The position numbers and the translations under genes are program-made. From the NCBI GenBank assembly GCA_903813345.2, contig CAIIXF020000001.1, positions 26,536,001-26,600,000 on the forward strand: 64,000 nt of DNA. Reading direction: 5' to 3'. The notes below the pieces were generated by a model. It was not told the origin of the DNA. It searched no databases and saw only the letters and a list, made by a program, of their open reading frames with translations. The stretch is from Owenia fusiformis. Taxonomy: Eukaryota. Below are positions 21,947 to 59,660 of this stretch, one piece after another (position 1 is the first letter of the stretch; every line of letters starts with the position of its first letter).

Positions 21947-22748
21947 TTTATTATCCCATCGAACGAAGTTCATTTTACGATTTTTGCTGTAACTCAAAAT
22001 ATAGTGGAGCGATTTTGTTCATATTTGGTATGTGAATACTATAAGCATTGCACACTGTCTAAAGACACTTTTGGTAGAAGGCGGCCATTTTGAAAAATGG
22101 CCGCAATTTTAACGTATTTTACTATAACTCGAAAAGTAGTGGAGCGATTTTGTTCATATTTGGTATGTGAAAACTATAAGCATGGCACACTGTCCTATGA
22201 CACTTTTGGTAGAAGGCGGCCATTTTGAAAAATGGCCCCCATTTTAATGTATTTTACTATAACTCGAAAAGTAGTGGAGCAATTTTGTTCATATTTGGTA
22301 TGTGAATATTATAAGCATGGCACACTGTCTATTTCTAATGACACTTTTGGTAGAAGGTGGCCATTTTGAAAAATGGCCGCCATTTTAACGTATTTTACTA
22401 TAACTCGAAAAGTATTGGAGCGATTTTGTTCATATTTGATATGTGAATACTTTAAGCATGGCACATTGTCTAATTAAACTTTGGGGAGTAGTCGGCCATT
22501 TTGAAAAATGGCCACCATTTTTATGTGTGTTATTTTACAAGTATGTGTGCGATTTTTCGAAAATTTTAGAGATGGCTACTTAAAAGCATATTATTTCTCC
22601 TGATGACAACTTGGCTAGTGAGCAACCATTTTGAAAATGGTGGCCTTTCTGGTGTGTTGTTTTATGATATTTGCATTCGTTTGTAAAAATGCCAGCCATT
22701 TCTGTTCGATGGGATTCGCTACGCTTTGGCATTGCCGTTGTTCTGGTT
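21947..22748 (+). mobile_element. Helentron-associated non-autonomous element (HINE/DINE-like) with an internal ~125-bp tandem array
   Basis: Subterminal IR ATCCCATCGAAC (21953-21964) / GTTCGATGGGAT (22704-22715), 3' hairpin GGCATTGCC, T-rich ends, about 4 internal repeats containing GGCCATTTTGAAAAATGGCC. Confidence 0.75.
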
Positions 22749-26631: not shown

Positions 26632-27384
26632 AAAACCCTTAGTCTAACGGTTTTAAACGTAGACAGATATAGATAGAGAACTACAAAATAAATTTATGGC
26701 AGTTATGGCAAGCTATATCCAGTTTACCCTTTACAAATGAGGAACTACTACAAGGGCTTCAGAAAAAGACATGTTCCGACTTCCACATAAATAAAGGTCA
26801 GGCTATGAAATTGGCTTATGTTTACATCAAATGGACTGCAAATTACTACTGGCAGAGGGTAAGACTTCACAGGTCGACAAGTCAATAATGTTTATTACTT
26901 TATACAAGAATACTGCAATATAAAGTGGATTAAGGCCACAATCTCATAAAGATTGTTTTTGCCTATGTCTACAATAAGTTATATCTTTCATTTGATCCAT
27001 TTCATCAATTCCTTCATAAATCAGAGAGCTGTATGTTGTTATAATCTGAATATATTTTAATACAATAGAATCATTAATCATCACAAAGTATGTCCATATA
27101 TGCAATTCGAACGATTCATTTGATAAATCGTCAGCCAAGATATCCTGGTACATATCAAATATATCACACAATTCATGAACAATATCCATACATTGAACGG
27201 CATAATGCCTCGCCGCATTTTTCCACCATGGTCGCGCCCATACTTCCTTGCTCTAGATCTACCAGAGGGAAGACTCCAAACAACTCCATGGATTGTAAAA
27301 ATGATCATGATCATGCTATCTTCTGTTATTATAGGAAAATACATACATTCCATTTTGATTTTACATGTTTTCATTAATCGTATT

Positions 27385-27864
27385 TCACATAAACTGTTGT
27401 TTGAGCTCTGCATGTCTGACATAATGGGGCTTTTGCTGTACACCATGGTGCACACATGGTACCTTAGTCCTCCCAGCTCGACCACCACGTTCCCGCATTT
27501 CGTTATTCTCAATCTCAGTCTTTAACGAAAGTCCCCTTGTGAGAGACGTTGATTTACTATGGAAAGACATTTGATGCTGAGAAAGTCTAGTGGATCGTAT
27601 TCTCTCGTTTTGGTAGTTCCTCTTGCAGCACGACTTTAATGCCTGTTTGAAGCTCTCTCTAAAGTTCTTGGACATAAATGCGTAAACTATGGGATTGACA
27701 CAGCTATTACAATAAGCCATCAGAGAGAAAGCGAGTCGCATTGGCTTTAACTCAAAATAGTTCAGCTCAAAACGTTTATCGAAGGAGACGAGGACATTGT
27801 CTATTAGGAACGGGCCCCAACAAAGGGCGAAGATAACGATGACCGTCACCAGCATCTTGATCAC
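27385..27864 (-). CDS. Class A neuropeptide-type GPCR, last coding exon (TM6, TM7, helix 8, C-tail)
   Basis: ttttcag acceptor at 27865-27866; VIKMLVTVIVIFALCWGP (CWxP), NSCVNPIVY (NPxxY), FRESF, CC; stop at 27385. Confidence 0.95.
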   Translation of the reverse strand: MIKMLVTVIVIFALCWGPFLIDNVLVSFDKRFELNYFELKPMRLAFSLMAYCNSCVNPIVYAFMSKNFRESFKQALKSCCKRNYQNERIRSTRLSQHQMSFHSKSTSLTRGLSLKTEIENNEMRERGGRAGRTKVPCVHHGVQQKPHYVRHAELKQQFM

Positions 27865-28036
27865 CTGAAAAGCAGAAGGCGTGTAGTTAATTAAACACAT
27901 TCAAAATAAGTCCTTTTCGAGCCATTGAGCAGTTTCATAGATTCTGAGTCAATGTGCGTGGCCATATTCAAGACACTTCCAGTTTTCCGAATAATGAGAG
28001 GGATTGTGTTACACCCCCGCCATCCGAGAACCATCC

Positions 28037-32459: not shown

Positions 32460-32613
32460 TTGTCTGCGTTGTCTGATGTCATCCGGGACCCGCTGGTTAC
32501 CCTGGTTGGAAAGGCATGGTGCCCCACTATCACTTCTTCGCACCACGCTTAATTGGTGACGGACCATGAATGGCGTCACTTCCGGTGCTTTCGTGCCACC
32601 ATTCGTATTGGAA
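32460..32613 (-). CDS. GPCR exon encoding intracellular loop 3 (SNTNGGTKAPEVTPFMVRHQLSVVRRSDSGAPCLSNQGNQRVPDDIRQRRQ)
   Basis: ttccag acceptor, gtaaga donor, 154 nt; phases 2 and 0 fit the neighbouring exons and give RRQ|VIKML. Confidence 0.88.
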
Positions 32614-35600: not shown

Positions 35601-35809
35601 GTCATTGGTGCTCGAATACTAGCTCTTTTTGAGGTCACCCTCCAAAGTTCATGACATATACCAAAGTAGGCGAATGACATGATTCCTAGAGGAATAATGA
35701 ATATCGTGATAAGCATGTAGAGTTCATAGAGCTGACCATATATTGGGGCACTCCATTCTTTCACGCACCAGTAGCCGGTTCGATTTTCTCCAATCATAAT
35801 TTTGTGCAC
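35601..35809 (-). CDS. GPCR exon, ECL2 and TM5 (VHKIMIGENRTGYWCVKEW...YELYMLITIFIIPLGIMSFAYFGICHELW...)
   Basis: Polypyrimidine tract with aag acceptor, gtaagt donor, 209 nt; ECL2 Cys and TM5 FxxP...Y. Confidence 0.93.
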
Positions 35810-41738: not shown

Positions 41739-41862
41739 CCGTCCTATGAGTATGGGGAAGGCGAGGACAAAAGCTAGAAACCAGATCCCTATTATCACTC
41801 TCCTGGACCTTTGCACTGTACACATGTATTTGGCCTTCATCGGATGTCTTATGGCATAGTAC
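41739..41862 (-). CDS. GPCR exon, ICL2 and TM4 (R|YYAIRHPMKAKYMCTVQRSRRVIIGIWFLAFVLAFPILIGR); not in the ORF track
   Basis: tttcag acceptor at 41863-41864, gtaagg donor at 41733-41738, 124 nt; completes the ERY motif in the correct phase; TM4 Trp and Pro present. Confidence 0.95.
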
Positions 41863-42170
41863 CTGAAAGCATCAAATAACTCAATTTGTATTAAATTGTA
41901 TATATCGTATTTGCCTTTCAGCAGATGTCTAATGGCATAGTACCTGAAAGCATCAAATAACTCAATTTGTATTAAATTGTATATATCGTATTTGCCTTTC
42001 AGCAGATGTCTAATGGCATAGTACCTGAAAGCATCAAATAACTCAATTTGTATTAAATTGTATATATCGTATTTGCCTTTCAGCAGATGTCTAATGGCAT
42101 AGTACCTGAAAGCATCAAATAACTTAATTTGTATTAAATTGTATATATCGTATTTGCCCTTCAGCAGATG
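41843..42170. repeat. 81-bp tandem repeat, about 4 copies, spanning the GPCR exon splice acceptor
   Basis: Plus-strand GTAC|CTGAAAG recurs with the acceptor dinucleotide at 41863, 41944, 42025 and 42106; three units are identical. Confidence 0.97.
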
Positions 42171-42380
42171 ATCCTAAAGGCCGTCCCTAAAACTGCATTT
42201 TGCATTTTGATTCCTCCTGAAAAAATTGATGATAAGCTTGAAACGCAGTGTCTAAGAATTCATTTTGTGGTTGCCTATTTGTTGAGCGGCGCTATATCAT
42301 TTCATTAGCGCAATTCCGACAATTCATTTTATGTTCGCACAGCCAAACCCGATGCTCTAGAAATCAACAATATAATGGAA

Positions 42381-42685
42381 CAAGGAGGATTGGCTCCCAG
42401 AGTGCACCACCGATATTCTGTCCCATATATGGGTATGTCGTAATACAAAATTCGAATTCAAACAGCCGCCATTTTGTTCACTTCAACATTTAAATCGTGA
42501 ATTTTGGTCTTATTTCCAAACGAAAAATTCCAAAACTCACAAGAAATGATCGAGATATTGGTTCGAATCTTTTGAACTGTTTATTTTGAATTTATAGTCG
42601 GTTTTAATTTCAGAAAATAACGACATTTCGACGTTTTCATTGTTGGAAAATATCGAGTTTCGATCCTGGGAGCCAATCCTCCTTG
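42381..42685. mobile_element. 305-bp MITE with 9-bp TSD, Mutator/Merlin-like tentative
   Basis: Perfect 20-bp TIR CAAGGAGGATTGGCTCCCAG; TSD ATAATGGAA at 42372-42380 and 42686-42694. Confidence 0.9.
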
Positions 42686-45319
42686 ATAATGGAAAATGTA
42701 TGTTCATTTGTGAGAGTACTCCATTCAACAATCAGACTATATATAACACGAAAGGAAATATTAAGTCAAGATGAAAGAAACCCCAATTAGACACCCATTG
42801 ATAAGGTGTAGTGAGATAGTAGCTATACGAATCGCAAAAATCAATCCAATCGTTATAATTCCTATAGTTTCTATCTCCATTAATCAAGGCATTTCATATG
42901 TTTGAAAGGAATACACTAATGGAACAGCATGATGTTTTGCACATATGAAGAATTGTTATGCACCCCTTGGTTTTATATGTTTGTACAATGCCTTCCTTTT
43001 TTACCTGAAATTAATCAAGCAGTGTAGCCTGTTTGATTAGATATCTTCTTCTTGTTGTTTATTGCAGTCCTCAGAATTAGGAGAACTCATTCACAAGGAC
43101 GGCTACTTATAAACTTAGCAGTATTGAAACGTCCAAACGTTTCAACCTTGAATAGTTCTCATTACGATTTTTAACACAATTCTCAAAATGAAGGGAATCG
43201 TCTCAGCTTTCCAGGAAGGCAGGCTACATGCATCATGATAAATCATGGCCTTCTCTTAGCTTCACTAGAGTATGCATATTTCTAGTTAAAGAAAGATATG
43301 ATGAGTATCAGAATGGGCTACATGTATGTCCCCTAACCCAAAGGATCGTCGAAGAATTCTCAATTTGAGTGATTTTTTAGATTAAAAAAAAAAATTGGGC
43401 ACCTAAAACCAAAAGTTAATTGTTCAGGAAAGAAACAAGTATTTCATTTAGAATTGTTGCAGATGTATTTATTTACCAATGATTGTTAAGGTAACTCAAT
43501 ATGGGGGAAATAACTGTTACCCAGCCGCTTTCATCGCTCAATGCACCTTATGCACCCTTTATCCATGATGGGATCCTTCGTTCAATATGGTGAACACGGG
43601 CACGTGTCTCTAATGTGTTGAAAACCATTACTGTAACCCAAAGTAATGTCTAATACGATTACACAACTCCCCTATACTCACTCTTCTCTAATCAACAAAA
43701 GGCAATGAACAGCAATCGTTATTCCAAAACTGTTACTGTTTATAACGACGTAATTCCGTAAACAAATTGATTGTCATACTTCATTTTTCACCGTAATTGT
43801 AATCATTTATATTCTCTATGGAAATCTTAAAGAAAACGATTATTTAAAGGTACACCAGACTGTGAACAGGAATGAATCATTTAGTTAATCAAGTTCGACT
43901 ATGCCCCTAGCGATACACGTACAACACTTTATTCTATAACCGATCGAACATCTCTTGAACCACGATGAAATCCTGTAGGCATTTACAGTAGGGAAGAGGA
44001 ATTCTGATACGGATTTACGTTCCTGTCCCATTTCATTCATTAGAAAAGGATGTTGGATAATATATTAAGGTTTACTTGAAATACACCTTGGCTTTAATCT
44101 ATGAGGGAACCTATAATTGATAAAGTTGCTATGTGATTCTGAGAATGATCCATGGGACTTTATTCCAAAGCAGAATTCGGGTATGACTAAACCACACCCC
44201 TTCCCTCCACCAATACATCCATTAACAAAGGAAGATGGACAGCACTCACATATTTCAAAAGCTTTTGGCATTTCACATTATAGTAAATAAAATGGATCGC
44301 CAGAAGAAGGCGAACTTATTTTTTGGGCTCAAAAAGACAATTTTTTGTCTCAAATATTCACAAAATCAAATATCGATAAAGTGTCGATTAACACTTCATT
44401 AGCATAGGACCTAATCTAGGGTTAGACGCAAAACAAAAAAGTCCCTCTAGGGTACTCGGGTTGACATCCTTCTGTGGCATGTGAAAAAGTTTCGATGTTT
44501 TCCCCAGATATGTATTCAATTATGTTTCTCCATGTATTGATTAAGTATGAGCAAATGAGATGTTATGTAAGCGAGTAAGTAATCCACTTTGGGCATTGTA
44601 ACATTGATTGCAGGATGTACTTTACGATTCTGGTTTTCTAATGGATAGTAGTTAGTGCTGAAAATACAATTGAAGCCAATGATAGGAAGTGTTCCCTACA
44701 CAATCACTACTGATTTAATTCCTTCATTAGTCATAATATTGTAATGATGAGATTGCTTTTGGTTGTTCAAAACCTTCATTAAATGCTTCTTCAATATTCG
44801 TGGGCCCAATTTGGTAAAGCATCTTCAAATTAAATCTGTGATTATGAATGACTGCATTGAGATTTCTTTAGCCGGATAAGGATACGTCTTCAAAATGTAA
44901 TTTTTCACAACTCCCGAAGGACGATTAGTCCTGGATCGGTGATGATTGCATCGCTGAAGTGGAAAACAAGGACAGACTTGTGTCAGACGCTCATGACGAT
45001 AATGGGGTAATGCATTGGTCAGAAGCCAAATGTGATAGAAATAGCGTGATTAAAATTAGGTGGTCTTGATTTGATGACATTGACATTAAAGAGTTTAAGC
45101 TTGCATATAAAATCGAAACGCCAATCTATTGAAAGCCCATGGTATGACCAATCGCCCATAAATGCATCGATTAAATATTTTCCGTTCGCTGAGAGCACGT
45201 TTCGAAAAAATGTTAGAAGTTGACAATTTTATGTCTTAAGCGTACTCTCATATTTCAATGTCATATCCTCTTTCTAATAAAAGTTCTGGAACGACCTATG
45301 GCCACTCATCCGGGGATCG

Positions 45320-45457
45320 TAGTGTAGCAACTGAGCCAGATACTGGACACGAAAGGGAATGTGCTAAATTTAACGCCCCGTGCGGAAATCATATCCAGGA
45401 CCTTCCGAAGCTCTACCAGAGCTCTACCCCTAATTAAGCAATAAGGGCTAGCCACTC
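45320..45457 (-). mobile_element. Degenerate tRNA-derived SINE-like copy
   Basis: Minus strand GTGGCTAGCCCTT...GGTAGAGC...AGGTCCTGG...; shares its head with 62907-62948 and its body with 1920-2015. Confidence 0.5.
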
Positions 45458-46076
45458 AAGCTGAGACTCATAGCAACTTGTTATCTAGGGTCATTACAGT
45501 AATTACTAGTATTCTATTTCCGGACGATCCTTTAAATTATAAGGTTGCAAAACAGAAAAGGGGGGCTAAGATAAATTTGGACATTTCCGCATCTTATATA
45601 CCCTCTATTCCATTCATTTAATAAGAGACGATAAGTCTTGTCACATACTGTCACTTTCCTTAATAAATCCTGACAAAGATCCACATTTCCTGATGACGAG
45701 TCGGTGGTGTAGTAAACGATGACCAATTTCAGAATTTATTGATCCCATGGTGACTAGGAAGTGGAAATGGGTGTTGAGATTTATGCAAGAGTTAATGTTT
45801 TGAATCATGATCTATCTTCTCGAATCACAGCTCCATTAGTATCCTCTTATCACTAATGCGGCCTGATTGTTCTCCATGGCCAGTTATGAGGACATCGTTT
45901 CTTTTTCTCTGCTGGAAATGGTTAGCGGTTTATTCAGGATGTGACATGATTGTGTACATGTTGATGATCATTGATGATATGTAATTGTCATGATGTAATA
46001 GGTATGAACGCGTAGATGCGAAAAAAGAAAAGGCCAATAGGTATTTCAAAACAGAGTACAGGTTAGGGTAACAGTA

Positions 46077-47127
46077 CAGACCTGCAAACCTCCCGTTTTT
46101 TATGGGAATCTCCCGTAAAATGTTTGTTCTTCCGTAAAAATATATCATCAGCCCTATGACTCAATAATTTTTGTCATATTGTTTTGTTTTCCAATTACAT
46201 TTAAATAAACCATTCTTAATGTTAAAGATTCACGTAAAAATCGGCGACATCGTTCAAAGCGTGGTGAAAATTATAAAAAGTACTTTTTAGAGTCTGATCG
46301 GTGATAGGACGCCTCAAACACATTTTACGTATGTTTAATCGATTTCTTAATAAAACCTGCTCATTTTTTACAAAAACATTGTATACTAAAAAGTATTGAC
46401 ATTCGGAGGTATAAATCATTTCATAATGTGACAAATTACACTTTATCTGTTGAATTGATTATGTGAATCAATTTTTTTGTGGCGGTTCCATAGTACACAC
46501 GGACAATTTGATAGTTCTTACTCAGCAATCATCTTGATTCAGTTTCAGTTGCTTGCTCAGCAATGGCGGGTATAAAAAGATCACCTCGTTTAGTAAGGTA
46601 AGAATCAAAATATTCATCATCAAAACTCAGAAAATACAGTTTTTCACAAATCTACCACTGAACTACTATCTTTTTATAATAAACTCTCGCAAAACTCCCG
46701 TTTTTTCAAAAAGCTCCCGCTAAACTCCAGCTTTTTAAAAAAAATCCCGCAAAAACTAGTTTTTTTCAAAAAGCTCCCGCTAAAACTCCCGCAAAAATTA
46801 CAGTTTTTTCAAAACCTTATAAAATTTACCGGAAAAAACTGTTTCTTTTTCGGACAATTTTTTGGGGAAAAAGAAACTAGACATAATCCGCAAAATCTTC
46901 CATAAAAACTACCGTTTTATTTCAAATCTACCGTAAAAACTCCCGTTCTTTTCAAAATCTATCGTAAAAACTCCAGTTTTCAGAATCTACCGTAAAAACT
47001 ATCGTTTTTTATAAAAGACTAACGCATAAATTACCCATTAAAAAAAAACTCCTGTAAAAACTCCCGAATTTTAGAAAAATCTCCCGTTAAAATACCGCAA
47101 TTTTTTCATTTTAGGTTGGCAAGTCTG
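46077..47127. mobile_element. hAT-like non-autonomous element with internal AAAACTCCCG-type repeats
   Basis: TIR CAGACCTGCAAACCT / AGGTTGGCAAGTCTG; many degenerate ~30-bp internal units at 46620-47100; TSD not clean. Confidence 0.7.
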
Positions 47128-47986
47128 AGAATACATAAAACAATGCAAAATAGATTAACAAGTCATAAGGACAGCAAATCCCCAATACTCTTAACTGTTA
47201 TCTAACGTACAATAAAACTATGTTTTACTCTCCCCCTGAAATAGTCATTCTTTATGGAAAAGCTTACCGTTTTGATGCTTTTATTTGTATACTTTGTTAA
47301 TAAAGCTAGATGGCCTTGGATCGAATGTCGCCTAAAACTATACATCAGTTCAGCAAGTAAGAGATGAAAGTGATAAATGTATCCAATGATTTAGACACAT
47401 CGATTCGGATTAGTTGTGTCAAAATGGGCACTGACATGTTGCAAAGACAGATTTACAAATTCATTGGCGCGGATTAATATTGTCAGCATCTACATTTCTT
47501 TACCCACAGTCCATTTATCAAACCATGAGATTTCAAGGTATCTTGATAGTCCATAATGAATCCGATTGGTCAAACTTTTTAAATTTTAATCAACATTTGA
47601 AAAAGACAAGATTGGCCAAACCTTGTGTGGGACAAAATTCAAAACTTTGTAAGTATTTTTTTTATCATAAAGCTACACACTTTTGCAAACTCATTCTGAT
47701 ACTCATAATACAGTATATTGTCACTGTTTTGCAACTATCAATATTTCTGGAGTGAGAAGAAAGGAGATAAACTCATTTTCTTGTGGATTCATGCATCCTG
47801 AGATATCAGTTCTGTCTTGTTTCAGTTCCTATCTATACAGGATATTGCTAATTTGAAAACAGATGAGTAATGAGCCTATTAATGACCTTATATTCTCAAA
47901 CATTGATTGGATATATAGCGTTTTGCCCATATATATTTGCCTCGGAATAATCTCAATATCCCGAACCTCATATAGGATAATCTATA

Positions 47987-48775
47987 GAGTGCGTCCCAAA
48001 AAAAACGCAACAAACAAAGACATTGTAAAATCACAAAACCAGTGATGATCATATCAATTTGATTTAATTTACCAGGAAGCCATATGTCTCCTCTTTCCAA
48101 TGGTATGTCAGTTATTCATATACCACTGGATTATCATTCCTTTTGCACAACGGGCCAAAATCTGCTCTGCACAAAGTTTTAGACATTGCAACAGTAAAGA
48201 GTCACCAATGAGGTTGCTGCTCTCCGCCAGAACCCCAGATGATTCAAAGAGGTTTGCAACATGGACACACAGGCCAGTCTCAGTGTGTAGAGAAATAGTG
48301 GTCATGTGAAAGGGCATGGAATGTAATCTTTCATGAGTAATCTTTCATAAGATGACAGACAATGACTGTTTATGCCACTTCTTTTTCCATATGTTTCGTT
48401 AACTGAACCATCAACGATACTGATGACCACTTAAAGTTAAATTTTCTTTTCCTTTTTCTTAGTAAATCTAAATCAGAAACTTGTGTTATGTAAATCTTGT
48501 GACAAGAATTTTATCCCCAGTACCAATTACATAATTGTACAATTACCTGATTGCACAATTAAAGGATTAGTTGATTGGCACAAAGGCCTTTTCACCCATG
48601 TGTGAAAAAAACAATAATTTTTCAGTGGTCCATGATCAGATATGAACAAATGACATATCATTAGAACGGGGAGACATGTGGTCCCATGGTAAACTTAATG
48701 AAATTAATGTAATCATGACTGGTTTTGTGATTTTACAATGTTTTTGCTGTTTGTTGCGTTTTTTGGGACGCACTG
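47987..48775. mobile_element. Tc1/mariner-like MITE
   Basis: TA|GAGTGCGTCCCAAAAAA..CGCAACAAAC ... GTTTGTTGCGTTTTTTGGGACGCACTG|TA; TIRs over 100 bp, imperfect. Confidence 0.8.
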
Positions 48776-50499
48776 TATTTATCTATTCTTGCTATCCGTT
48801 TCTGCTCTATTTTTTGCCAATCCTTTGTTTGTTGATTTCATACGTGTAACCATGGGCATTCAACTAAATTGATATGAAAATGATTTGAACTTACGGACTG
48901 ACAAGCCTGGCATATCACAACAAATCAGATCACCGTGTAGTATCAGACATCCTTACTTTGTCATAGGGTATCTTTCTTCTTTCCAGTTGCAGTTAGCCCG
49001 AAGGTGAATGACGATGAGAGCGTTGGTGAATAGTATTTACAAGGCATTTAGGGAAATAAGGTACTAAATTGAAATTGAAAGCTCTCGAGATAATGACATC
49101 AGCGAAGTGGATTTGATGGAAATGTTCAGATCAGTTCAAAATGACTGTGCCATTTTGAGCTTTTGTGGCGTTTTGAGTAGTGTTATCTAAATTAACAGAA
49201 TCTATGATGTGACAAGGATTTCTTACAGACATGCGACCTTTAATTTCCCCCGACGCTAAGATCCATATATTCAACCAGAAACCAGGAGTTTGACTTCGAA
49301 AACAATATAAAACCATTGATCATATTTTATATGAGATGAAGATGTAAATGGCCGTTTGCGGAGGATTCAGTATTTTTATTAATTTTTTGCCCTTAGCCCT
49401 AATCATGATCCTAAGTATTTTCCATGTAAAAACTATAGGTTAGATAACCAAATCAGCCATATTGGTTAAATTCCTTACAATACCTAAATGGCAGGGAAAT
49501 GTTCATTATGAATACTGTTGGTGCCCTACCCCAAATCTTTGGAGACTTACTATATTAATTCTTTTACCACATATTAGAAGATAATTTTTAGAGGATATAT
49601 CATTTCTTATGATATATCTTGCACTTTACACTGCCAATCTCAAACAGCATCAAACAGCGCTGTTTATGAAACAGTGCTGGACAGCGCTGTAAAAACAGTA
49701 CTGTACATCGCTGTGTACTAAGCTATTCAAAACAGGTCAGGGCCGTCAGATGGGGGGGTGCGATGGGTGCGACCGCACCCCCCTTTGTTACCCCCCAAAA
49801 TAAATTTGAAATTTTGAAAAAAAATTTTGACAAATATTTTTTTGTAATTTTTTTTCATTGACTCATACACTTTGAAAGTACCCAGAAAGCACCAAATAGC
49901 ATCTTAAAATTGTAAAATTTTCTAGGGGTATTGGCCACCCCTCACACCCCCACAAAACAATGGAAAAGTTCTAAATTTATTTTAGTGTTTTGTCTCAGAC
50001 ACTTTTAAAGTGCCCAGACATCATCAAATAGCTCCTTGATATAGTTAGTGTTTCTGGGGGACTTGCTCCCCCTCTTGCATCTTGCACTTGCATAACCCCC
50101 CCCCCCCTGGCGCCCCCCTTGACCTCCCCCCTCTGGCGCCCCCCTCTTGACCCCCCCCCAAAAAAAAATTGTGATTTTCTCAAATTCTTTAATTGACTCA
50201 TACAATTTGAAAATGCCCAGAAAGCACCAAATAGCGTCGTAAAATTGTAAAATTTTCTAGGGGGAGTGGGCCACCCCTCACACCCCAAACAAAACAATGG
50301 AAAAGTTCTGAATTTGTTTTATGTATTGTCTCAGACACTTTTAAAATTCCCCAGACATCATCAAATAGCTCCTTGATAAAGTTAATGATTCTAGAAGACT
50401 AACACTTACTCGCCCTCTGGCATCCCCACTCCACCTCCCCCTCTGGCAGCCCCCCCCCTTAACACCCCTCCCCCAAAAAAAATAAAATTGAGATTTTTC

Positions 50500-50533
<34 letters not shown>

Positions 50534-50611
50534 TAATCAAACATAAAATGTATACATATAGGTGAAATATTATACAAGTCACTCCATTACCCATTCATTC
50601 ACATTCTCCAC

Positions 50612-53600
50612 TCATACCATCATACTGTTAAAATCCATTTTCATTTTTAAACAATAATCTAAATATGCCTTAAAGTTGTAATAATTTGGAGGCTCTTGTT
50701 GCATTTTCTTATTATATAAGTAGTACTTTCCTATAATAATTACCATATTTTCAAAATCACTCCATTTTGGGCTACCAAATACTACTGTAAGCAGAGAAAA
50801 ATTTTCGAGATCTTTTAATGTATTATCTATTATTGATTTCCAAAACTGTTTCGTATAATCACAATTAAAGAGGATGTGGTCACAAGTTTCTATGTTCACA
50901 TGGTAAAACTCACACATTGGTGAAGGTGTTATTTTGTATTGAAATAGTTCACTGTTTGTATACAAAATATTGTTTATGAGCTTATATTGAAATGCCTTAT
51001 GTTTTGAATATGTCAGGGTTTTATGAAAGTGTTCATAGTAAAATGACCAATCTTCTTCTTTAATATGATATTTATCTGATAAAGTGTGTTTTGCTGTTGG
51101 ATATTCTGCAATAGCTTCCAGCAATATTTTATAAAATTCTCTAGATGTACATTCTAAAAAGTTGACTTCTGTATCGTTTTTTATTACCATTATATTTTCT
51201 AGAGATACCTGGTCATTCATATTTCCATTCGGTACTCTTAACCAATCTGATGGTATTGCCTGAATGAGGCCAAACCATTTTAGCATATAATTGTGTGAGA
51301 GTCCAGTTTGCATTTTGACCTGATTCCATGATTTAACCATTCCATTAAGCATAACATCTTTGATTCTTAGAAAACCTTTATCATAAAATTCCTTCCAAAA
51401 TATTGATTTATTTCTGATGACAATGTTCTCATTATTCCAAATTATTTCATCCAATGTATTTTTCTTTGGTCTCCTTAAAAGCTTATATGCCTTTAAAATA
51501 TTATGATAAAATCTTGGGCTAATTGCATTTAGTTTATTTATGTCAAAATTGCAGTTTAGTAAAAGTAGAAGCCCGCCATATTTATGGAGATAATGATTTG
51601 GAATAATTGTCCATTGTGATTCCTTTTTAGTATCCTTTAAAAGCTTTTGGGCCCATCTTAATTGAGAGGTTTGAATTTTGGTTTTGAGGTCGCTCATGTT
51701 GAGTCCACCTTTTTTAATTGTTGAAATAAGTGCTTTTCTTTTAATCTTGTCATTTCCGTTCCAAATAAATTTAAAAACAATTCCGTTTATTTCCTTTACA
51801 TAACAATCATCTGTTTCAATAACTGAACTAATAAAGCTAAATTTTGACAGCCCAAAAGTTTTTACGATCTGTATTTTACCTAAAATTGTCAAATTTCTAC
51901 TTTGCCATAGGCTCAATACCTGCTTAAGGTGATTAATTGTCGACCTAAAATTTTTCTCTGCTTTGAGCTTTCTATCATAATTAAAATACACTCCAAGAAT
52001 TCTAATTTCTTGAACTTGTTTCAAATGTTCAATGTCCCAAATTTGATCTTTAAATCTTCCTATTGTAAAGAGTTCAGTTTTGTCTAAGTTTGTTTTAAGG
52101 CCACTGCATTTTTCAAAGCTATCAAGTACTTTCATTGACTGCAGTATGGAGTTTTTATCCCTAACAAACAACGTCATATCATCTGCATATATGCTCAGTT
52201 TTATTTCTTTATTACCAATTTGAATTCCTTTTATTAATACATCATCTCTTATATTTTGGGCTAGAAACTCCACTGCAATGATGAAGAGTACTGGTGATAA
52301 TGGATCACCTTGTTTAATTCCCTTTTCTATTTTAAATTTTTCCCCGCAGAACCCCAAATTCATAACTTGGGCAGTTATATTACAATACAATATTTTAACC
52401 CATGAAATAACATATTCTCCGAAATTTAGTTTTTCTAAAGCTTTTATTAAAAAATCGTGGCTTAGAGAATCAAAGGCCTTGAGAAAGTCAACAGCTACGA
52501 AAGCGCCCCCTATATTCTCATCTTCTGTATAAAACATCATGTCATCTATTAATCTTATAATTTCAGCCATTTGTCTTTCTTTTATGAATGCTGCTTGATC
52601 TGATTTAATTAATTTGCCTAATACAGATTCAATGCGCTTGCACATAACTTTGGAAATAATTTTTGCATCCACATTTATTAATGAAATCGGACGTTGATTT
52701 TTTAAAAACATGACATCTCTTCCTTTTTTCGGAATGAGTTTCATAATGATTTCTCTCTGAGAAACTGACATTTCCTTTTTATTAAATGTGAAACCTATAG
52801 AATTCATAAAAGTTGTTTTTATTTTTTCCCAAAATGTAGAATAAAATTCAATAGTAAGACCATCACTTCCGGGGGACTTATTATTTTTAAAAGTTTGAAG
52901 AATTTTATAACATTCTTGCTCTGTGATTTGGCATTCCATAGACAATTTTTCCTCCTCGGTTAGCTTAGGAATATTTTTATTTTCTAAGAATACATTTGCA
53001 TTTTTATTATATACATTTGCTTTTGATTTTGAATAAAGCTGTTTATAAAATTCCTTGATTTTATTTTGAATTGTTTTAAAATCTTTAGAAATTACTCCAT
53101 TTGCATTTTTTAATTGTGTTATGTTACTTTTTGCAGCATTTTGTTTCTCTAATCGAAGAAAATATTTTGAGCCTTTCTCCCCTTCAACAAAATCTTGAGA
53201 TCTTGATCGAATTTTCTCACCTTGTGTTACATAGTCAATATGAGTCTCAAGCTGTAATTGGCATTCGTAGTATGCATTTTTAATTTCTATGTCATTTGGA
53301 TTTTTATCTAAATTGCTCTGTATCGTATTAAGTTTATTTTCTAGGTCACATTTGTTTTTCTTTCTAGCCTTTGCCCTCTTCTTTGAATAAGCAATGGTAA
53401 AATGTCGTATTTTGTATTTAATAAAATCCCAGACAACTCTTTGGTCTTCAATTTCTGTAACTTCATTTAACCATTTGGGAATATTTTGCTCAAGTTCATG
53501 TTTAAAATCAATGTCATTCGAAAGGCTATTATTATACCGCCAGTGGTTTGGGCCTGGTTTTTTATTTATATTGTTAAAATAAATGACTATAGGAGAATGA

Positions 53601-54295
53601 TCCGACTTAATACCTGTATCTATATCAATCTTCTCAACATTATGTTGGAGGTTATCTGAACACAGCCACAAATCTAACCTACTCATTATTGTAGGATTTT
53701 TCTGACGCCAAGTGTATCTTTTTCTGTTGGGGTTTCTAAGACGCCATAAATCAACCAAGTCTAAATTAAGCATGAATGTGTCAAAAAAATCGATAATCTG
53801 TTTATTAACTTTATGATTTCCACCACTTCTATCAAGATCTGCACTGAATATGATGTTGAAATCGCCGCCTATTATTAAATTAGTGTCATCGTTTGTGAAA
53901 TCTTCTATTTTACGCGCGAATTCTGTCCAAAATGGAAGTTTTTCTTGTTCGATGGTTGGCCCATAAACATTTATCAAAAGAAAGCGTTCATTTTGAATCT
54001 CAGTGTCTAAAATAAGAAACCGCCCATTTTTATCAGAAATTTGTCGTTTGACCTTAATGTCAAGAGAGTCTTTTATTAATATCATTACTCCTCTACTTTT
54101 AGAGGACCCGTGTGAAAAATATATATCACCTTTCCAGTTATTATTATATGTATTTTCGATTTCATGTGTACTGTGGGTTTCTTGTAAAAAGGTAATGTCT
54201 TTGTTTTTACTTTTTACCCAATTCATAACCGTATCCCGTTTATTTTGATTCACCAAGCCCCTAACATTAAAAGATAGCATATTAAAATTCATCAT
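50612..54295 (-). CDS. LINE ORF2: APE endonuclease, reverse transcriptase, C-terminal zinc knuckle (1227 aa)
   Basis: NVRG, LQETH, GGDFN and SDH endonuclease motifs; KSPGSDG, RPISL, DFLKAFD, QGDPLSP and YADD RT motifs; CEFYH...DHILFNC knuckle. Confidence 0.97.
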   Translation of the reverse strand: MMNFNMLSFNVRGLVNQNKRDTVMNWVKSKNKDITFLQETHSTHEIENTYNNNWKGDIYFSHGSSKSRGVMILIKDSLDIKVKRQISDKNGRFLILDTEIQNERFLLINVYGPTIEQEKLPFWTEFARKIEDFTNDDTNLIIGGDFNIIFSADLDRSGGNHKVNKQIIDFFDTFMLNLDLVDLWRLRNPNRKRYTWRQKNPTIMSRLDLWLCSDNLQHNVEKIDIDTGIKSDHSPIVIYFNNINKKPGPNHWRYNNSLSNDIDFKHELEQNIPKWLNEVTEIEDQRVVWDFIKYKIRHFTIAYSKKRAKARKKNKCDLENKLNTIQSNLDKNPNDIEIKNAYYECQLQLETHIDYVTQGEKIRSRSQDFVEGEKGSKYFLRLEKQNAAKSNITQLKNANGVISKDFKTIQNKIKEFYKQLYSKSKANVYNKNANVFLENKNIPKLTEEEKLSMECQITEQECYKILQTFKNNKSPGSDGLTIEFYSTFWEKIKTTFMNSIGFTFNKKEMSVSQREIIMKLIPKKGRDVMFLKNQRPISLINVDAKIISKVMCKRIESVLGKLIKSDQAAFIKERQMAEIIRLIDDMMFYTEDENIGGAFVAVDFLKAFDSLSHDFLIKALEKLNFGEYVISWVKILYCNITAQVMNLGFCGEKFKIEKGIKQGDPLSPVLFIIAVEFLAQNIRDDVLIKGIQIGNKEIKLSIYADDMTLFVRDKNSILQSMKVLDSFEKCSGLKTNLDKTELFTIGRFKDQIWDIEHLKQVQEIRILGVYFNYDRKLKAEKNFRSTINHLKQVLSLWQSRNLTILGKIQIVKTFGLSKFSFISSVIETDDCYVKEINGIVFKFIWNGNDKIKRKALISTIKKGGLNMSDLKTKIQTSQLRWAQKLLKDTKKESQWTIIPNHYLHKYGGLLLLLNCNFDINKLNAISPRFYHNILKAYKLLRRPKKNTLDEIIWNNENIVIRNKSIFWKEFYDKGFLRIKDVMLNGMVKSWNQVKMQTGLSHNYMLKWFGLIQAIPSDWLRVPNGNMNDQVSLENIMVIKNDTEVNFLECTSREFYKILLEAIAEYPTAKHTLSDKYHIKEEDWSFYYEHFHKTLTYSKHKAFQYKLINNILYTNSELFQYKITPSPMCEFYHVNIETCDHILFNCDYTKQFWKSIIDNTLKDLENFSLLTVVFGSPKWSDFENMVIIIGKYYLYNKKMQQEPPNYYNFKAYLDYCLKMKMDFNSMMV

Positions 54296-54578
54296 CGATC
54301 TAGCGCCTGTTCATTTTGTGATTTAAACTATAAAAATATGTAGTATTAAATAATTTATATCCAATATATACTTTTAGGCATATGATTAGTTTACAACAGT
54401 ATCGTATCACAAAAATAACATATTTGTACAACATTACTAAATATTCATTCACTCCTATCAAGTTCAGACATTCCATTCTCACATACACATTCATTATATT
54501 CTTAACAATAGTCCTTCAATAACCAGTTGATGAACTATTTTCCATTTAAGTCTCTGTGGGCTCCTCCATCGAAAGATA

Positions 54579-55047
54579 TTAGTCTTTCCTCAAGGTTATT
54601 GGTATTCTGGATACATCTGTGCTCTTGTATGTTCTATTGTCCAAATGTAGTGTGTCTGCTATCATAAATGCTCGTTTTCCCTGATTCCGCGCTTCTTTCA
54701 TATACGGGTAGAGTGCCTTTCTCCTCATGTTGATCTCTTTACAAAAGCTTTCATCCATTCTGTATGGGGAGTCTTTGCAGTTTCGTCGAGCGTCCCATAC
54801 CAGCTTTTTATCTTTGAACCAATGGAATTTTGCTGTAATTGGTCTGCTTTTATTTGCTGATCTATCATTTTGGTTTCTTTTCCCCAGACGATGGACTCTT
54901 TCGAATTTTATATCTTTCGCATCTATTTTGAGTTGTTCATTAATCATCTTCCTCACTTTTAATTCACAATCTTCATCTTCTGATTCCTCTATATTGTAAA
55001 AGTGAATGCTGTCTCTCCTAGAGTATGTGTCTTGATCAAGAACTTTG
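54579..55047 (-). pseudogene. L1-type ORF1 C-terminal part (RRM and CTD); coiled coil lost by truncation
   Basis: YSRRDSIHFYNIEE...FERVHRLG...RPITAKF...RRKAL...AFMIADTLHLDNRTY motifs typical of L1 ORF1. Confidence 0.85.
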
Positions 55048-58000
55048 TCATATTTTTTTATTGACTCATACATTTTGAAAGTGCCCAGAAAGCACCAAAT
55101 AGCATCTTAAAATTGTAAAATTTTCTTGGGAAATATGCGCTTTTAGGCACAGACACTTTTAAGTGCCCAAACTTCTAATGGAATAGCACCTTGATATTGT
55201 AAGTTTTGATATGGGGGACAAACACTTGCTCCCCCTCTGGCACCCCAGCCCCACCTCTCCCTCTGGCACCCCTCTCCCCCCCCTCTTTGACACCCCCAAA
55301 ATTTGAAAAAAATTGTGATTGTTTTTCAATGTTTTTATTGATTAATACCTTTAAAAGTGCCCAGAAGCACCAAATATCATCTTTCAATTGTAAAATTTTC
55401 TAGGAGAGTTAGCTACCCCTCACATCCCCCTCAAAACAAAATAAATATTCTGAATTTCATGTATTGCCCAGACATCATCAAATAGCACCTTGATATGGTC
55501 AATGTTTCTGGGGGACAACCCCTTGCTCCCCTACTGGCACCCCACCCAACTTCACCCTCTCATCCTCTTTGACACCCCCAAAAGAATTTGAAAAAAATCA
55601 CATTTTTCTTATTAACTCATAACGCACAGGCGTTCCAGATGGTTCCAAATTCGCTCCAAATACAAGCAAATTTCAAAATTTTCCTGGGGGAGAACCCCCA
55701 GACCCCCCTGAATGCTCGGTTTTTATTTATTCACTCAACTCTTTCTTGTGGTGATGGCGTACTACTAACTTAGAAACTTACACTTTGAAAGTGCCAAGAA
55801 AGCACCAAATAGCATCTCAAAACTGTAAAATTTTCTAGGGGGAGTGGACCACTCCTCACACCCCCCACAAAACAATTGGAACGTTTGGAAGTTGCATTTG
55901 TTAATTCCAAACCAATATAGGGAGTAACTGACCCCCACCCCCCCCCCCCCTCTGTCTTACGTGATTTGATTTACGCGGCAAAAAAATTGACAATTTTATG
56001 TTCCCTTTAGTAAGCTAAAAACCGCACCCCCCTTGGAGAAAAGTGTCTTACGGGCATGCAGGTGATGCTAGAATAGCACTGTACATCGCTGTATAACACA
56101 GTACTCAAATGTTCCTAAGTAATATTTTTAAAACTTTTTTTTTAATTAAACAAATCAGAGTCGTGTGAATCAGAAATAACAGAATTATTCAAAAGTATAA
56201 GGACTATTCTGTACTTTTTTCAAAAGTCTATACTTAAATGTTGTGAAAAGTTATAATCGAAAAACCATCTTTCGGAGTAAAGTCCGTCTGCGCCGATTTC
56301 AATAACTTCGTACTTGATCAGAACTGGGTTCCAACAGAATTCCTACAAACTCATGAATGAAATAGCCATTGCATGGAATACTTACTTTTGTCAAAATCAA
56401 AGTAGAACTCTAGTTAAAAAATATATTGTGCTAAATTATTGCCATTTCTTAGTAAAATGTCGTTCTCCGGTACGTTGCCAAAATTATTCGATGGTACCCC
56501 GTGATAATGCACTGTTCAGTACTGTTTACAGCGCTGCAAAATGATGTTGCGGATTTAACCTTGAATTTGAAACAAAAATGCTTTTTATATTCCCCATTTA
56601 TCATGCTAAGTATTAAAATTACTAAAATTATCCACAAATAAAATATATGTGAGGGTCCCATTTTTATGTGCCCACCCTGTCCATGTCCTTATACTTTATT
56701 CTGCATATTCTTTATGATCACAGGAAGTAAAATGTACGTGATCTCATTGGATGGCGAAATATGAAATGGCATCTTATAGACTTGATGTATAAACCTGAAT
56801 AATGTGAATATCATTAACATTTTGATAACTTTGAGATAAGATAATTGTATTACGCACATAACTCAAGATTTCAAGAAATAACATGTCATATAATATCTGT
56901 TTGATCTCCAGGCTATTTCTTTTATTTATGTTTTGTAATTTGCTTTTTTGAATAGGTCGAACTAATTCGCAATCTGCAATCTACTACCCATGTGTTACAG
57001 TTAATCAAGCATTTTACATAAATCAGCCATTTCCATCGGCAGATTAATCCCCAGCAACCTTAGTGGACTTTGGAACGAGAATATGATGTATTTTTTAATG
57101 TTGAAAAATGTATAAGATACAAAGCATCAAATACAGTCAAGGTTGGATTATTAAGGATTTGTTGTCCCTTTTTCGTCGCATTCATTAAGGTATTATTAAT
57201 GATTATCTAATCAACTTACCTTTGAATACTTGCATTATTCATAACTATTTTACCATATAAATTATATTGGAAATCTTTCTCAGTTTCTAAGTTGTGTATG
57301 ACTATGATCGTGTTGAAACATAATTACTGAAATTATTCCTTGGATAGAAATTCTAGTGTAGCAACCTTTAAAAGAGATGAATGTGAAATTTATTCTGTAC
57401 TGCTTCAATCAAATTGATATAAATCGGTGGGAATCACGTTGTTTACCAAACTCTGTGGGCGATTATCTTCAGTTTAAATAAAGAGTCACGAAATAAAGTA
57501 TGTGCGCCTTGGAATGTACAGACAGAGGATACAGAACAATACCCCTCATCTGAGGCCATGAAATCGTACAATCGCAAAATTGATTTTCTTTCTCCGAAAT
57601 GGTGCTTTGTAAAATAAATCCCAACCTCCGAACGCAGGGCTCCAAACATCACCCACGGGAAGAAAACAGAGTGGATGATGGTATAAGATTTTTGTACAAG
57701 TACATCCAAATCCTTACAACAGTGATCCTGGTAATGTCTTCGAATCACTCAGATCCATGCGATCTGTCTACATCGAGTGATATGACAGACATAAAGGAGA
57801 GCACTTCATTAATCAAAGTACATAAATTCCCCTCGTACAGCTAGTCGTTAGAATCAATAAAATTCTTTGTCTGGAGGATGACAATTAAAGGCAATCGTGG
57901 TAGTGGACAGTATAAGTAGGCACACATCTTGACTTTTACTTACTTATCCAATCAAGTAAAGAATATTATTCTCTCCGGATTCACGAAAGACACTACAAGA

Positions 58001-58200
58001 GTTGTATAAGATTTATGTTCACACAATATTGGATGCATGGAATTTTTCAAAGAAAATCGAACCTTAAACATCTACATACATTTTGAGTTTTTGCACATGT
58101 ATTTTGCTGTATTATTCCTCAGCAAAAAAGTGTGTCCAGCATTAAAAGTTGAAGTGTTTTGTGCTTCCATTCCCCCAAAAAGATAGTCACTGAGTAAATA

Positions 58201-58764
58201 CAGGGTGGTCAAAAAAACTGGAAACCCTTACACCATTTTCCTAATATCTTTATTATTTTAAGAAATAACTTTGCACATTTATACATCACTCAATTTCCTA
58301 CCAGCCTACCATATTTCATGACCATCTGATTGATAGTCACAGTGCTACAGCACTTTAAAGAACATCCCCGGTGGCCACTATTGCGCTGAAGGTCAACCTG
58401 GACATGTCATCCAAAATGTCCCTATCTATGGGAAAATGGCAGAGATAAAGTGTATAAGAATGACCTCTGGACAATGGCAGACCTCAAAAGTGAGATCATC
58501 TGCATCATTCAGGCCATACCTGCTGAGGAATGCATTTGGATCATTGACAACTGTGCAGGTTTGCCTACAGCGCCATGATGGCCAAACCTGGAGCATGTTG
58601 TTCAAAGTGCTGTAAAATTGTGACTATCTGTCTGATGGTCATGACATATGGTACGGTAGTAGGAAATTGAATGATTTACAAATGTGTGAAATATCAGGGA
58701 GTAATTTCTTAAAATGACAAAGATATGAGGAAAATGCAGGGTTTCCGTTTTTTTGACCACCCTT
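58201..58764. mobile_element. Tc1/mariner-like MITE
   Basis: TA|CAGGGTGGTCAAAAAAACTGGAAACCCT ... AGGGTTTCCGTTTTTTTGACCACCCT; ~150-bp imperfect arms. Confidence 0.78.
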
Positions 58765-59538
58765 TTTGTATTATACTTGCGCCTATGTGCAAATTCATGT
58801 TTTTCGAAGATTTCACTATTATAAAATAAACAATAACTAAGTGTAATGTGATATTTGGTTTTGCCCAGATGTCTCTTTTCCCACTTTCTCTTGCACCCAT
58901 CATAGTGGTATTTAGTGTTTGATAGGATAGGATCATTTTTATAGGACAGCGGAGGGATTTAAAACGATAAGCTATAGTAGAACATTTCCATTTGTTTTCC
59001 AAATCACGTAAATTAAAGGATATTGTTGTTTTCAAGTTCATCTATCTCAATATTCAGGTGAACATCCCATGGCGATATTGTAAACTAGACTGCTAGACAC
59101 TGGGATATGTTTCACTCAGCCAGATTACCAGAACTTTGTTGAGACTTCGCGTATAGAGAAGCGTATGAAAGAGCGAGTCTGTGGTTTACGAGCTCTAACC
59201 AGGCCGAGAATGAAGAACCTATTTTAAATCATACTTACATTTACAAGTTTTGTCACAAACTAGATAGTAAGACAGACATAAAATATGTTATTTAATTTTA
59301 TCGTCTTTCTATAGCTATCACCGCTGTCTTACAATAATCAGATGTAGATTAAGTACCTTTTCACAAGCACACATTCGAGCGGCCGTCAATAATCAACTAC
59401 TAACTGCTCGTTGACCAATCAAAATCGAGTACAGGGTGTCCCTAAATAAATTGGACCAAGACAAACATGAACTAATTCGGAGCATGATGATGAAGGAGTT
59501 TTCTAATAAAGATCTAAAAATTTCACTTGGTAACTCAC

Positions 59539-59660
59539 CTCTCAACGCTCATGAATGTGAGCGTTAACACTGAGCAAATGACGGAGACATTCTGGAAATA
59601 GTGGACCAGTTTGCACATCACTGCTCCAAAATGCCATACAAATGTCACGTGTTTTGTGAA
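59539..59660 (-). CDS. GPCR exon, ECL1 and TM3 (FTKHVTFVWHFGAVMCKLVHYFQNVSVICSVLTLTFMSVER)
   Basis: ttttcag acceptor, gtgagt donor, 122 nt; WxFG and conserved TM3 Cys. The five exons total 1089 nt and are in frame to the stop. Confidence 0.95.

What the first reader, a model, noticed from the sequence alone, without database searches (positions are those of the whole stretch)
41826..42170. 81-bp tandem amplification of a GPCR splice acceptor gives four in-frame, stop-free alternative 3' splice sites just after the ERY motif
Seen: the acceptor TTATTTGATGCTTTCAG|GTACTATGCC occurs four times at exact 81-nt spacing (41863, 41944, 42025, 42106), each with its own upstream TTTAAT branch-like sequence. 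Each unit is 27 codons without a stop in the receptor frame (YYAIRHLLKGKYDIYNLIQIELFDAFR). Established: the E/DRY motif and ICL2 govern G-protein coupling in class A GPCRs. Inference: acceptor choice could give receptors with 0, 27, 54 or 81 extra residues at the TM3/ICL2 junction, all escaping NMD, so repeat copy number could tune signalling. It may equally be a neutral VNTR tolerated because it preserves frame. Three identical units suggest recent origin.
Basis: partly seen in the sequence, partly recalled or inferred. Interest (0 to 1): 0.8.

Follow-up and report, generated by a model that had tools for sequence, protein, structure and literature searches.

The report
Splice-acceptor minisatellite in an annelid GPCR
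A young 81-base tandem repeat has copied the start of one exon, together with its splice signal, of a neuropeptide receptor gene in the worm Owenia fusiformis; the extra copies most likely sit unused in the intron, though no RNA data could be read to check this.

Summary
Window 41826-42170 is an 81-bp tandem array of 4.3 copies, 97% matching. It has four exact copies of the 27-base acceptor motif at 81-nt spacing, against 0 in 100 shuffles. The unit is stop-free only in the receptor frame.

The array straddles the intron 2/exon 3 border of a minus-strand class A neuropeptide receptor gene. The exons match Owenia fusiformis protein P0001 at 100%. That public model uses the proximal acceptor at 41862.

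Three full units are 81/81 identical. Their exon-like part differs from the true exon at 5 of 37 positions. This points to an old duplication followed by a recent expansion.

All four acceptors carry the same signals, so sequence alone cannot say which is used. No protein in the databases carries the repeat peptide.

The in-frame, stop-free property has roughly 0.08-0.16 probability by chance. ICL2 length is invariant in 120 of 120 homologues. That argues against working insertion isoforms.

Best reading: an intronic minisatellite removed with the intron. Isoform tuning is untested and unlikely.

The parts
41826..42170 (-). 81-bp tandem array of 4.3 copies that straddles the intron 2/exon 3 border. 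Its proximal 37 nt (41862-41826) are the true start of exon 3.
   Evidence: TRF; sequence
42106..42170 (-). Distal partial unit. It holds a 21-nt exon-like tail (42170-42150) and a 44-nt intron-like part that ends in acceptor AG 42107-42106. It has 2 differences from the inner units.
42025..42105 (-). Full unit 1. It begins with the exon-like GTACTATGCC and ends in acceptor AG 42026-42025. It is 81/81 identical to units 2 and 3.
41944..42024 (-). Full unit 2, ending in acceptor AG 41945-41944.
41863..41943 (-). Full unit 3, ending in the annotated (proximal) acceptor AG 41864-41863.
41890..41895 (-). Branch-point-like TTTAAT, with a candidate A at -29 of the proximal acceptor. Identical copies lie at 41971-41976, 42052-42057 and 42133-42138.
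   Evidence: Read from the sequence. The branch-point role is inferred from the yUnAy consensus, which is recalled.
41739..41862 (-). Exon 3 (124 nt). It encodes P0001 residues 162-202: the Y of ERY, ICL2 and TM4.
   Evidence: tblastn 100% identity; unique exon set; Pfam 7tm_1
59539..59660 (-). Exon 2 (122 nt). It encodes residues 121-161 (TM3) and ends in GAG AG, the first two bases of the Arg codon of ERY. The donor GT is at 59538-59537.
41863..59538 (-). Intron 2 (17,676 nt, phase 2). Its last 308 nt are array.
35601..35809 (-). Exon 4.
32460..32613 (-). Exon 5.
27385..27864 (-). Coding part of exon 6, including the stop codon. Exon 1 (residues 1-120) lies beyond the window end.

Best explanation
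The array is a young minisatellite. It arose by tandem duplication of an 81-bp piece that spans the 3' end of intron 2 (about 44 nt) and the first 37 nt or so of exon 3. The gene is an Owenia fusiformis neuropeptide receptor of the QRFP/orexin-like group, probably elevenin-type.

An older duplication left an exon-like copy that then drifted. A recent expansion, by unequal exchange or replication slippage, made three identical units and homogenised the intron part up to the true exon. The true exon itself was held by selection.

The working mRNA joins exon 2 to the proximal acceptor (41862). The extra units, with their three identical acceptors, are therefore removed as part of the 17.7-kb intron and the protein is unchanged. 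Any use of an upstream acceptor would be a by-product. It would place 27, 54 or 81 foreign residues in ICL2, most likely giving a poorly functional receptor.

Shown here: the anatomy, the identity of the signals, the gene model, and the ICL2 invariance. Inferred: the order of events and the dominance of the proximal site.
For: - Array and acceptors.
- One exon set only reproduces P0001 residues 121-482, and it uses 41862. P0001 comes from an annotation built from RNA-seq junctions, Trinity/GMAP, Augustus and PASA, which kept 31,903 transcripts for 26,966 genes. Isoforms were therefore allowed (passages of PMC9977687).
- The search with the array ORF among proteins of 255-2000 aa gave 2 hits. 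Only P0001 is related, and it aligns to the exon part alone.
- The search with P0001 residues 121-272 among proteins of 30-264 aa gave 7 hits, and 0 came from this gene.
- Two-phase history: 0 differences among three 81-nt units. Between the proximal acceptor and a copy there are 0 differences in the 60 nt upstream and in the first 12 exon bases, against 5 of 25 at +13..+37. My Fisher test took 44 intron plus 12 exon bases, 0 of 56 against 5 of 25, p = 0.002.
- No coding constraint in the copies. As I read the codons, 3 of the 5 differences change the residue. One of these turns the Pro that is invariant in 120 of 120 homologues into Leu.
- ICL2 length: 26 residues between R3.50 and W4.50 in 120 of 120 aligned homologues.
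- Chance level of the frame property: 0.248 of 81-nt windows of intron 2 are stop-free in a given frame, and 0.489 of 36-nt windows. Multiply either by about 1/3 for a period divisible by 3.
Against: - The three nearest acceptors are identical from at least -60 to +12, and the distal one differs only at -20 and -54. No sequence signal favours the proximal site.
- Predicted RNA pairing does not mask the upstream sites. Mean paired probability over -20..-1 is 0.65, 0.65 and 0.70 for them, against 0.79 for the proximal site.
- The exon-3 acceptor has the weakest pyrimidine tract of the five in the window: 11 of 18, against 14-15 for the others. Competition could therefore be real.
- A gene model that matches homologues could have been chosen by the predictor even if other junctions exist.
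- No read-level RNA evidence was obtained. The dominance of the proximal site is an inference.
Confidence: 0.55

Rival explanations
1. Splicing noise at real alternative acceptors. Because the four 3' splice sites are identical, the upstream ones are used at an appreciable level. This would give an 81-nt ladder of in-frame mRNAs that escape NMD. The products would be non-adaptive, either tolerated or mildly harmful, and the expanded allele may be a recent polymorphism of the sequenced male.
For: - The branch-like motif, pyrimidine tract, AG and first 12 exon bases are identical at all four sites.
- There is no structural masking.
- The units contain no plausible 5' splice site that could remove them afterwards (unit sequence; my reading).
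- The frame is open.
- The three identical units imply that selection has had little time to act.
- The assembly comes from one male and was de-haploidised (passages of PMC9977687).
Against: - The public model and protein databases show only the proximal form.
- An older extra copy seems to have persisted long enough to diverge at 5 of 37 positions. That is easier to understand if it is mostly unused.
- ICL2 length is invariant in 120 of 120 homologues.
Confidence: 0.3
2. Adaptive tuning. Acceptor choice or repeat copy number makes receptor isoforms with a lengthened ICL2 that change or dampen G-protein coupling, and this is maintained by selection.
For: - The period is a multiple of 3 and the unit is open only in the receptor frame.
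- The insertion point is at the E/DRY-ICL2 junction, a coupling determinant (established knowledge, recalled).
- Every copy begins with the same YYAIRH as the true exon.
Against: - The frame property has about 0.08-0.16 probability by chance.
- The copies lost the invariant Pro and show mostly residue-changing differences.
- 120 of 120 homologues allow no length change here.
- Perfect identity at every intron position of the units fits homogenisation rather than selection on signals.
- No isoform is on record.
Confidence: 0.05
3. Assembly artefact. The array, or its copy number, is an error of assembly or polishing.
For: Near-identical tandem units can be miscounted by assemblers. No raw reads were inspected here.
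Against: - The array is only 345 bp.
- The assembly rests on 170 Gb of PacBio reads with read N50 above 25 kb from one male, polished with Arrow and with Illumina reads (passages of PMC9977687).
- The distal unit carries its own two variants, and the flanks are unique sequence.
Confidence: 0.03

Closest known systems
Tandem genomic duplication across an AG|GT junction, as in the tandem-duplication model of intron gain and splice-site duplication. Review: Yenerall and Zhou 2012, PMC3443670 (passages read). Its references Hellsten et al. 2011 and Gao and Lynch 2009 were seen only as reference entries. The latter is not held, and what I say of its content is recalled.
   Same: A short tandem duplication copies splice signals together with exon sequence. 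If the outer signal pair is used, the duplicated exon piece is spliced out and the coding sequence stays unchanged. If an inner signal is used, nucleotides are added to the coding sequence.
   Different: No new intron is made here. An existing 3' splice site is copied, so the old intron is simply lengthened. The unit has also been amplified to four acceptors, and the copies have drifted from the exon.
Tandem alternative 3' splice sites: NAGNAG sites and acceptors 3-100 nt apart. Sources: Akerman and Mandel-Gutfreund 2007, PMC2018619 (abstract); PMC2279118, selection against in-frame tandem sites in structured protein regions (start of abstract in the search listing).
   Same: Closely spaced competing acceptors whose choice changes the protein in frame. 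Such events are selected against in structured protein regions.
   Different: Each acceptor here has its own branch-like motif and pyrimidine tract, the spacing is 81 nt, and the sites are exact copies made by duplication. Use of more than one site is not shown.
Intronic VNTRs and minisatellites near splice sites that change splicing with repeat length. Review: PMC13196383 (passages).
   Same: A tandem repeat able to vary in copy number lies beside a splice site, with a possible graded effect.
   Different: The unit here contains a complete acceptor and part of the exon. Copy-number variation and any splicing effect are untested.
Elevenin receptors of protostomes: Platynereis, Ixodes, Aplysia apElevR1-3 and Nilaparvata NlA42. 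Source: PMC10175484 (passages).
   Same: P0001 matches proteins that sources name elevenin receptor 1 of Aplysia (P0031, 45% identity over 86% of the query) and Neuropeptide GPCR A42 of Nilaparvata (P0048, 47%). The nearest solved structures are the orexin, QRFP and CCK receptors.
   Different: Most hits carry automatic names such as QRFP-like, GPR54-like or allatostatin-A-like. No tree was built and no ligand is known for the Owenia protein. The family name is a lead only.

Membership tests
Class A (rhodopsin-like) GPCR | Match to Pfam 7tm_1 above the curated cut-off | tested here: met
   Exon 2 scores 32.3 bits and exon 3 scores 30.6 bits, against a cut-off of 30.5. The full protein P0001 carries PF00001.
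Class A (rhodopsin-like) GPCR | E/DRY at the end of TM3 and the conserved Trp of TM4 | tested here: met
   ERY at residues 160-162 and W188. In the alignment E is 120/120, R is 119/120 and W is 120/120.
Elevenin receptor | Orthology to deorphanised elevenin receptors | tested here: inconclusive
   45-47% identity to two named members. Other hits with automatic names show similar identity. No tree was made.
Elevenin receptor | Activation by elevenin peptide | not testable with these tools
   Needs a cell assay such as the IP1 or Ca2+ assay described in PMC10175484.
Minisatellite / VNTR | Head-to-tail units of about 10-100 bp | tested here: met
   Period 81, 4.3 copies, 97% matches.
Minisatellite / VNTR | Copy number varies among individuals | not testable with these tools
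   Only one assembly is available and no reads were laid.
Alternative tandem 3' splice sites (a real splicing event) | Two or more acceptors competent by sequence | tested here: met
   Four exact copies of the acceptor 27-mer, each with a TTTAAT branch-like motif.
Alternative tandem 3' splice sites (a real splicing event) | Transcripts that use more than one acceptor | not testable with these tools
   The read-laying tool gave nothing. Protein databases show only the proximal form.
Recursive splice site (ratchet point) | A 3' splice site directly followed by a strong 5' splice site consensus (GTAAGT-like) | tested here: not met
   The bases after each AG are GTACTA, which miss the consensus at +4, +5 and +6. 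The real donors of the gene are GTGAGT, GTAAGG, GTAAGT and GTAAGA. The consensus itself is recalled.

The most novel reading that the evidence does not exclude
The array is a heritable tuning knob. Repeat number and acceptor choice would produce an 81-nt ladder of in-frame isoforms of an elevenin-type receptor, with ICL2 lengthened by 27, 54 or 81 residues. These isoforms would alter or dampen G-protein coupling, for instance as dominant-negative partners, and would be kept by selection.
Probability: 0.05. Interest if true: 0.7.

Novelty: new member of a known kind. Interest (0 to 1): 0.3.

Why it matters
If only the proximal site is used, this is an ordinary intronic minisatellite. It would also be a tidy example of how a duplication across a splice site can be neutral, because the copy is spliced out with the intron.

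It still has some value as a natural experiment. Four acceptors with identical branch-like motif, pyrimidine tract, AG and first 12 exon bases compete for one donor 17.7 kb away. Junction counts would therefore show how position and downstream exon context alone decide 3' splice-site choice in a spiralian.

It is also a caution for annotation. Short reads with fewer than 13 nt past the junction cannot tell the true acceptor from the copies. The three upstream sites cannot be told apart from each other without reads that cross whole units.

Tried and rejected
- **RNA evidence.** The run search with the last exon (window 26870-27867) listed 24 runs. Twenty hold the stretch or part of it, from 6 studies. 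No RNA holder is listed. Three raw RNA runs of 2026 were added by species label only. Acceptor use therefore stays open.
- **Own genome.** It is not held.
- **RNA structure as a mask for the upstream acceptors.** Each acceptor's CTTTCAG is complementary to CTGAAAG in the exon-like part. However, the partition-function fold of 42330-41680 pairs all four sites alike, 0.65-0.79. Rejected as a discriminator.
- **Recursive splicing.** Rejected, because the regenerated donor GTACTA is poor.
- **Cassette use of single units.** Rejected, because I see no plausible donor inside the unit.
- **Pfam Pombe_5TM hit on the array ORF** (E 4.8e-8). Rejected as a repeat-driven false positive on intron sequence.
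- **Literature on multi-copy or duplicated acceptors** (after two mis-formatted tries). This returned only NAGNAG and tandem-site papers, one VNTR review and unrelated work. The ABCA4 paper PMC10534262 (passages) has no relevant case. I make no claim that the arrangement is absent from print.
- **Gao and Lynch 2009.** Could not be read.

Full report
**Observation.**
Tandem Repeats Finder reports one array at 41826-42170 with period 81, 4.3 copies, 97% matches and no indels. It occurred 0 times in 100 dinucleotide-preserving shuffles. The G of each AG is at 41863, 41944, 42025 and 42106, and each acceptor has TTTAAT at -33..-28. The unit is 27 codons. It is open in the receptor frame and closed in the other two, which have 3 and 2 stops. 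A 148-codon stop-to-stop frame runs through the array into the exon.

**The gene.**
Both flanking exons score above the Pfam 7tm_1 cut-off: 32.3 and 30.6 bits against 30.5. A search with the array-plus-exon ORF found the 482-residue Owenia fusiformis protein P0001. tblastn of P0001 on the window gives 100% identity over all matched exon parts.

A script that tried all AG/GT-GC borders near the matches found one exon set that reproduces residues 121-482:
- exon 2, 59660-59539
- exon 3, 41862-41739
- exon 4, 35809-35601
- exon 5, 32613-32460
- exon 6, 27864-27385

Exon 1 lies beyond the window. Intron 2 is 17,676 nt and phase 2. It splits the Arg codon of E-R-Y, so the junction is inside the motif rather than after it.

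The nearest solved structures are the orexin-1, QRFP and CCK-A receptors, with E about 1e-47 to 1e-45. Among 273 homologues (120 listed), most carry automatic names such as QRFP-like or GPR54-like. Two carry names of tested receptors: elevenin receptor 1 of Aplysia at 45% identity and Nilaparvata GPCR A42 at 47% (passages of PMC10175484). An elevenin-type receptor is therefore a lead, not a result.

Two short ORFs from unnamed contigs of other taxa end exactly at the same ...SVER. This suggests the intron position is old.

**Anatomy and history of the array.**
Read on the minus strand, each unit is an exon-like piece followed by about 44 nt of intron end. The exon-like piece covers the first 37 nt of exon 3, possibly 45 with one indel. 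The intron end carries the branch-like motif, the pyrimidine tract and the AG.
- Three full units (42105-42025, 42024-41944, 41943-41863) are 81/81 identical.
- A distal partial unit (42170-42106) has two differences. It starts with only the last 21 nt of the exon-like piece, so there are exactly four acceptors.
- Between the proximal acceptor and a copy there is no difference in the 60 nt upstream or in the first 12 exon bases.
- There are 5 differences at +13..+37, at positions 13, 21, 23, 28 and 30. My test took 44 intron plus 12 exon bases: 0 of 56 against 5 of 25, Fisher p = 0.002.

As I read the codons, three of the five differences change the residue (Pro to Leu, Met to Leu, Ala to Gly) and two are silent.

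I infer two phases. An older duplication left an exon-like copy that drifted without coding constraint. A recent expansion with homogenisation then made the inner units identical and overwrote the intron part right up to the true exon. The exon itself was protected by selection.

**Are the upstream acceptors competent, and which is used?**
By sequence all four are equal. The three nearest are identical from at least -60 to +12, and the distal one differs only at -20 and -54.
- A partition-function fold of 42330-41680 pairs the -20..-1 stretch to a similar degree at all four sites: 0.65, 0.65, 0.70, and 0.79 for the proximal one. Structure gives no preference.
- The bases after each AG (GTACTA) are a poor donor, and I see no plausible donor inside the unit. 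Recursive or cassette removal is therefore unlikely.
- The exon-3 acceptor has the weakest pyrimidine tract of the five in the window, 11 of 18 against 14-15.

Sequence alone thus cannot decide, and this is the main point against my preferred reading.

**Evidence on use.**
The public protein uses the proximal site. According to passages of PMC9977687, the annotation combined RNA-seq junctions, Trinity/GMAP, Mikado, Augustus with hints, and PASA. It kept 31,903 transcripts for 26,966 genes, so isoforms were not excluded by design.
- The search with the array ORF among proteins of 255-2000 residues gave 2 hits. Only P0001 is related, and it aligns over the exon part only.
- The search with P0001 residues 121-272 among proteins of 30-264 residues gave 7 hits, none from this gene.
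- The P0001 cluster has one member.

No database protein therefore carries the repeat peptide. This is annotation-level evidence only.

**Is the open frame meaningful?**
In intron 2, 0.248 of all 81-nt windows and 0.489 of all 36-nt windows are stop-free in a given frame. The exon-derived part was open to begin with. With about 1/3 for a period divisible by 3, the joint chance is roughly 0.08-0.16.

Tandem arrays are also common here. By my sum of the rows, 17 distinct arrays cover about 2.5 kb of the 64 kb. An array touching one of the nine splice junctions in the window is therefore not a rare event, roughly 0.3 if placement were random.

**Protein-level plausibility.**
In a MAFFT alignment of P0001 with the 119 other proteins listed, all 120 have exactly 26 residues between R3.50 and W4.50. 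E3.49 is 120/120, the Pro of the HP motif is 120/120 and W4.50 is 120/120. An insertion of 27-81 residues at this point has no precedent in the family, and the first copy would put Leu where the invariant Pro stands.

Two caveats apply. Many of these proteins are homology-guided predictions. Only the best 120 of 273 were aligned.

**Verdict.**
| Reading | Probability |
|---|---|
| Young intronic minisatellite that copied the acceptor; the working mRNA uses the proximal site and the extra units leave with the intron | 0.55 |
| Upstream sites used at an appreciable level as non-adaptive noise, perhaps on a recent allele | 0.3 |
| Adaptive tuning of signalling by isoform or copy number | 0.05 |
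| Assembly artefact (the array is 345 bp, the assembly rests on 170 Gb of long PacBio reads) | 0.03 |

**Comparison with what is known.**
The arrangement is a variant of the tandem-duplication route by which splice signals and exon pieces are copied and the copy is spliced out (review PMC3443670, passages). It differs in that an existing acceptor, not a proto-splice site, was copied and then amplified. It resembles tandem alternative acceptors (PMC2018619, abstract; PMC2279118, listing) and splice-site-adjacent VNTRs (PMC13196383, passages). Use of more than one site and copy-number variation are both unshown.

I file it as a new member of a known kind, of modest interest. Its main value is as a natural test of 3' splice-site choice among identical sites, and as a warning about ambiguous junction mapping.

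Noticed in passing
window 41739-42173 (minus strand translation): The translation of the intronic array plus exon 3 hits Pfam PF09437 (Pombe_5TM) at E 4.8e-8, with 33.4 bits against a cut-off of 27. It is a repeat-driven false positive on non-coding sequence.
   Followed up: partly
proteins P0008 and P0009 (unnamed ENA/Logan contigs of other taxa), compared with window 59539-59660: Both short ORFs end exactly at ...SVER, where exon 2 ends here. The phase-2 intron inside the ERY motif therefore seems conserved in relatives.
   Followed up: no
window 41863-41882, compared with the acceptors at 59661, 35810, 32614 and 27865: The exon-3 acceptor has the poorest pyrimidine tract of the five acceptors of the gene in the window: 11 of 18 pyrimidines at -20..-3, against 14, 15, 14 and 14.
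   Followed up: no
window 1-668, 21971-22526, 46671-47104, 63312-63499: Other tandem arrays lie in the window: a nested 54/167/280-bp array at the window start, a 135-bp x4 array, a cluster of 28-32-bp arrays inside intron 2, and A/T-rich short-period arrays near the end. In all, 17 distinct arrays cover about 4% of the window.
   Followed up: no
window 41826-42170 (minus strand): The last 7 bases of each acceptor (CTTTCAG) are exactly complementary to CTGAAAG in the exon-like part of each unit. Four of the five differences between copy and true exon fall in this complementary stretch. Folding did not separate the four sites, so the meaning, if any, is open.
   Followed up: partly
window 26888-26893 (minus strand): An AATAAA lies about 490 nt downstream of the stop codon and is a candidate poly(A) signal for the receptor gene. 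The 3' UTR end was not verified.
   Followed up: no
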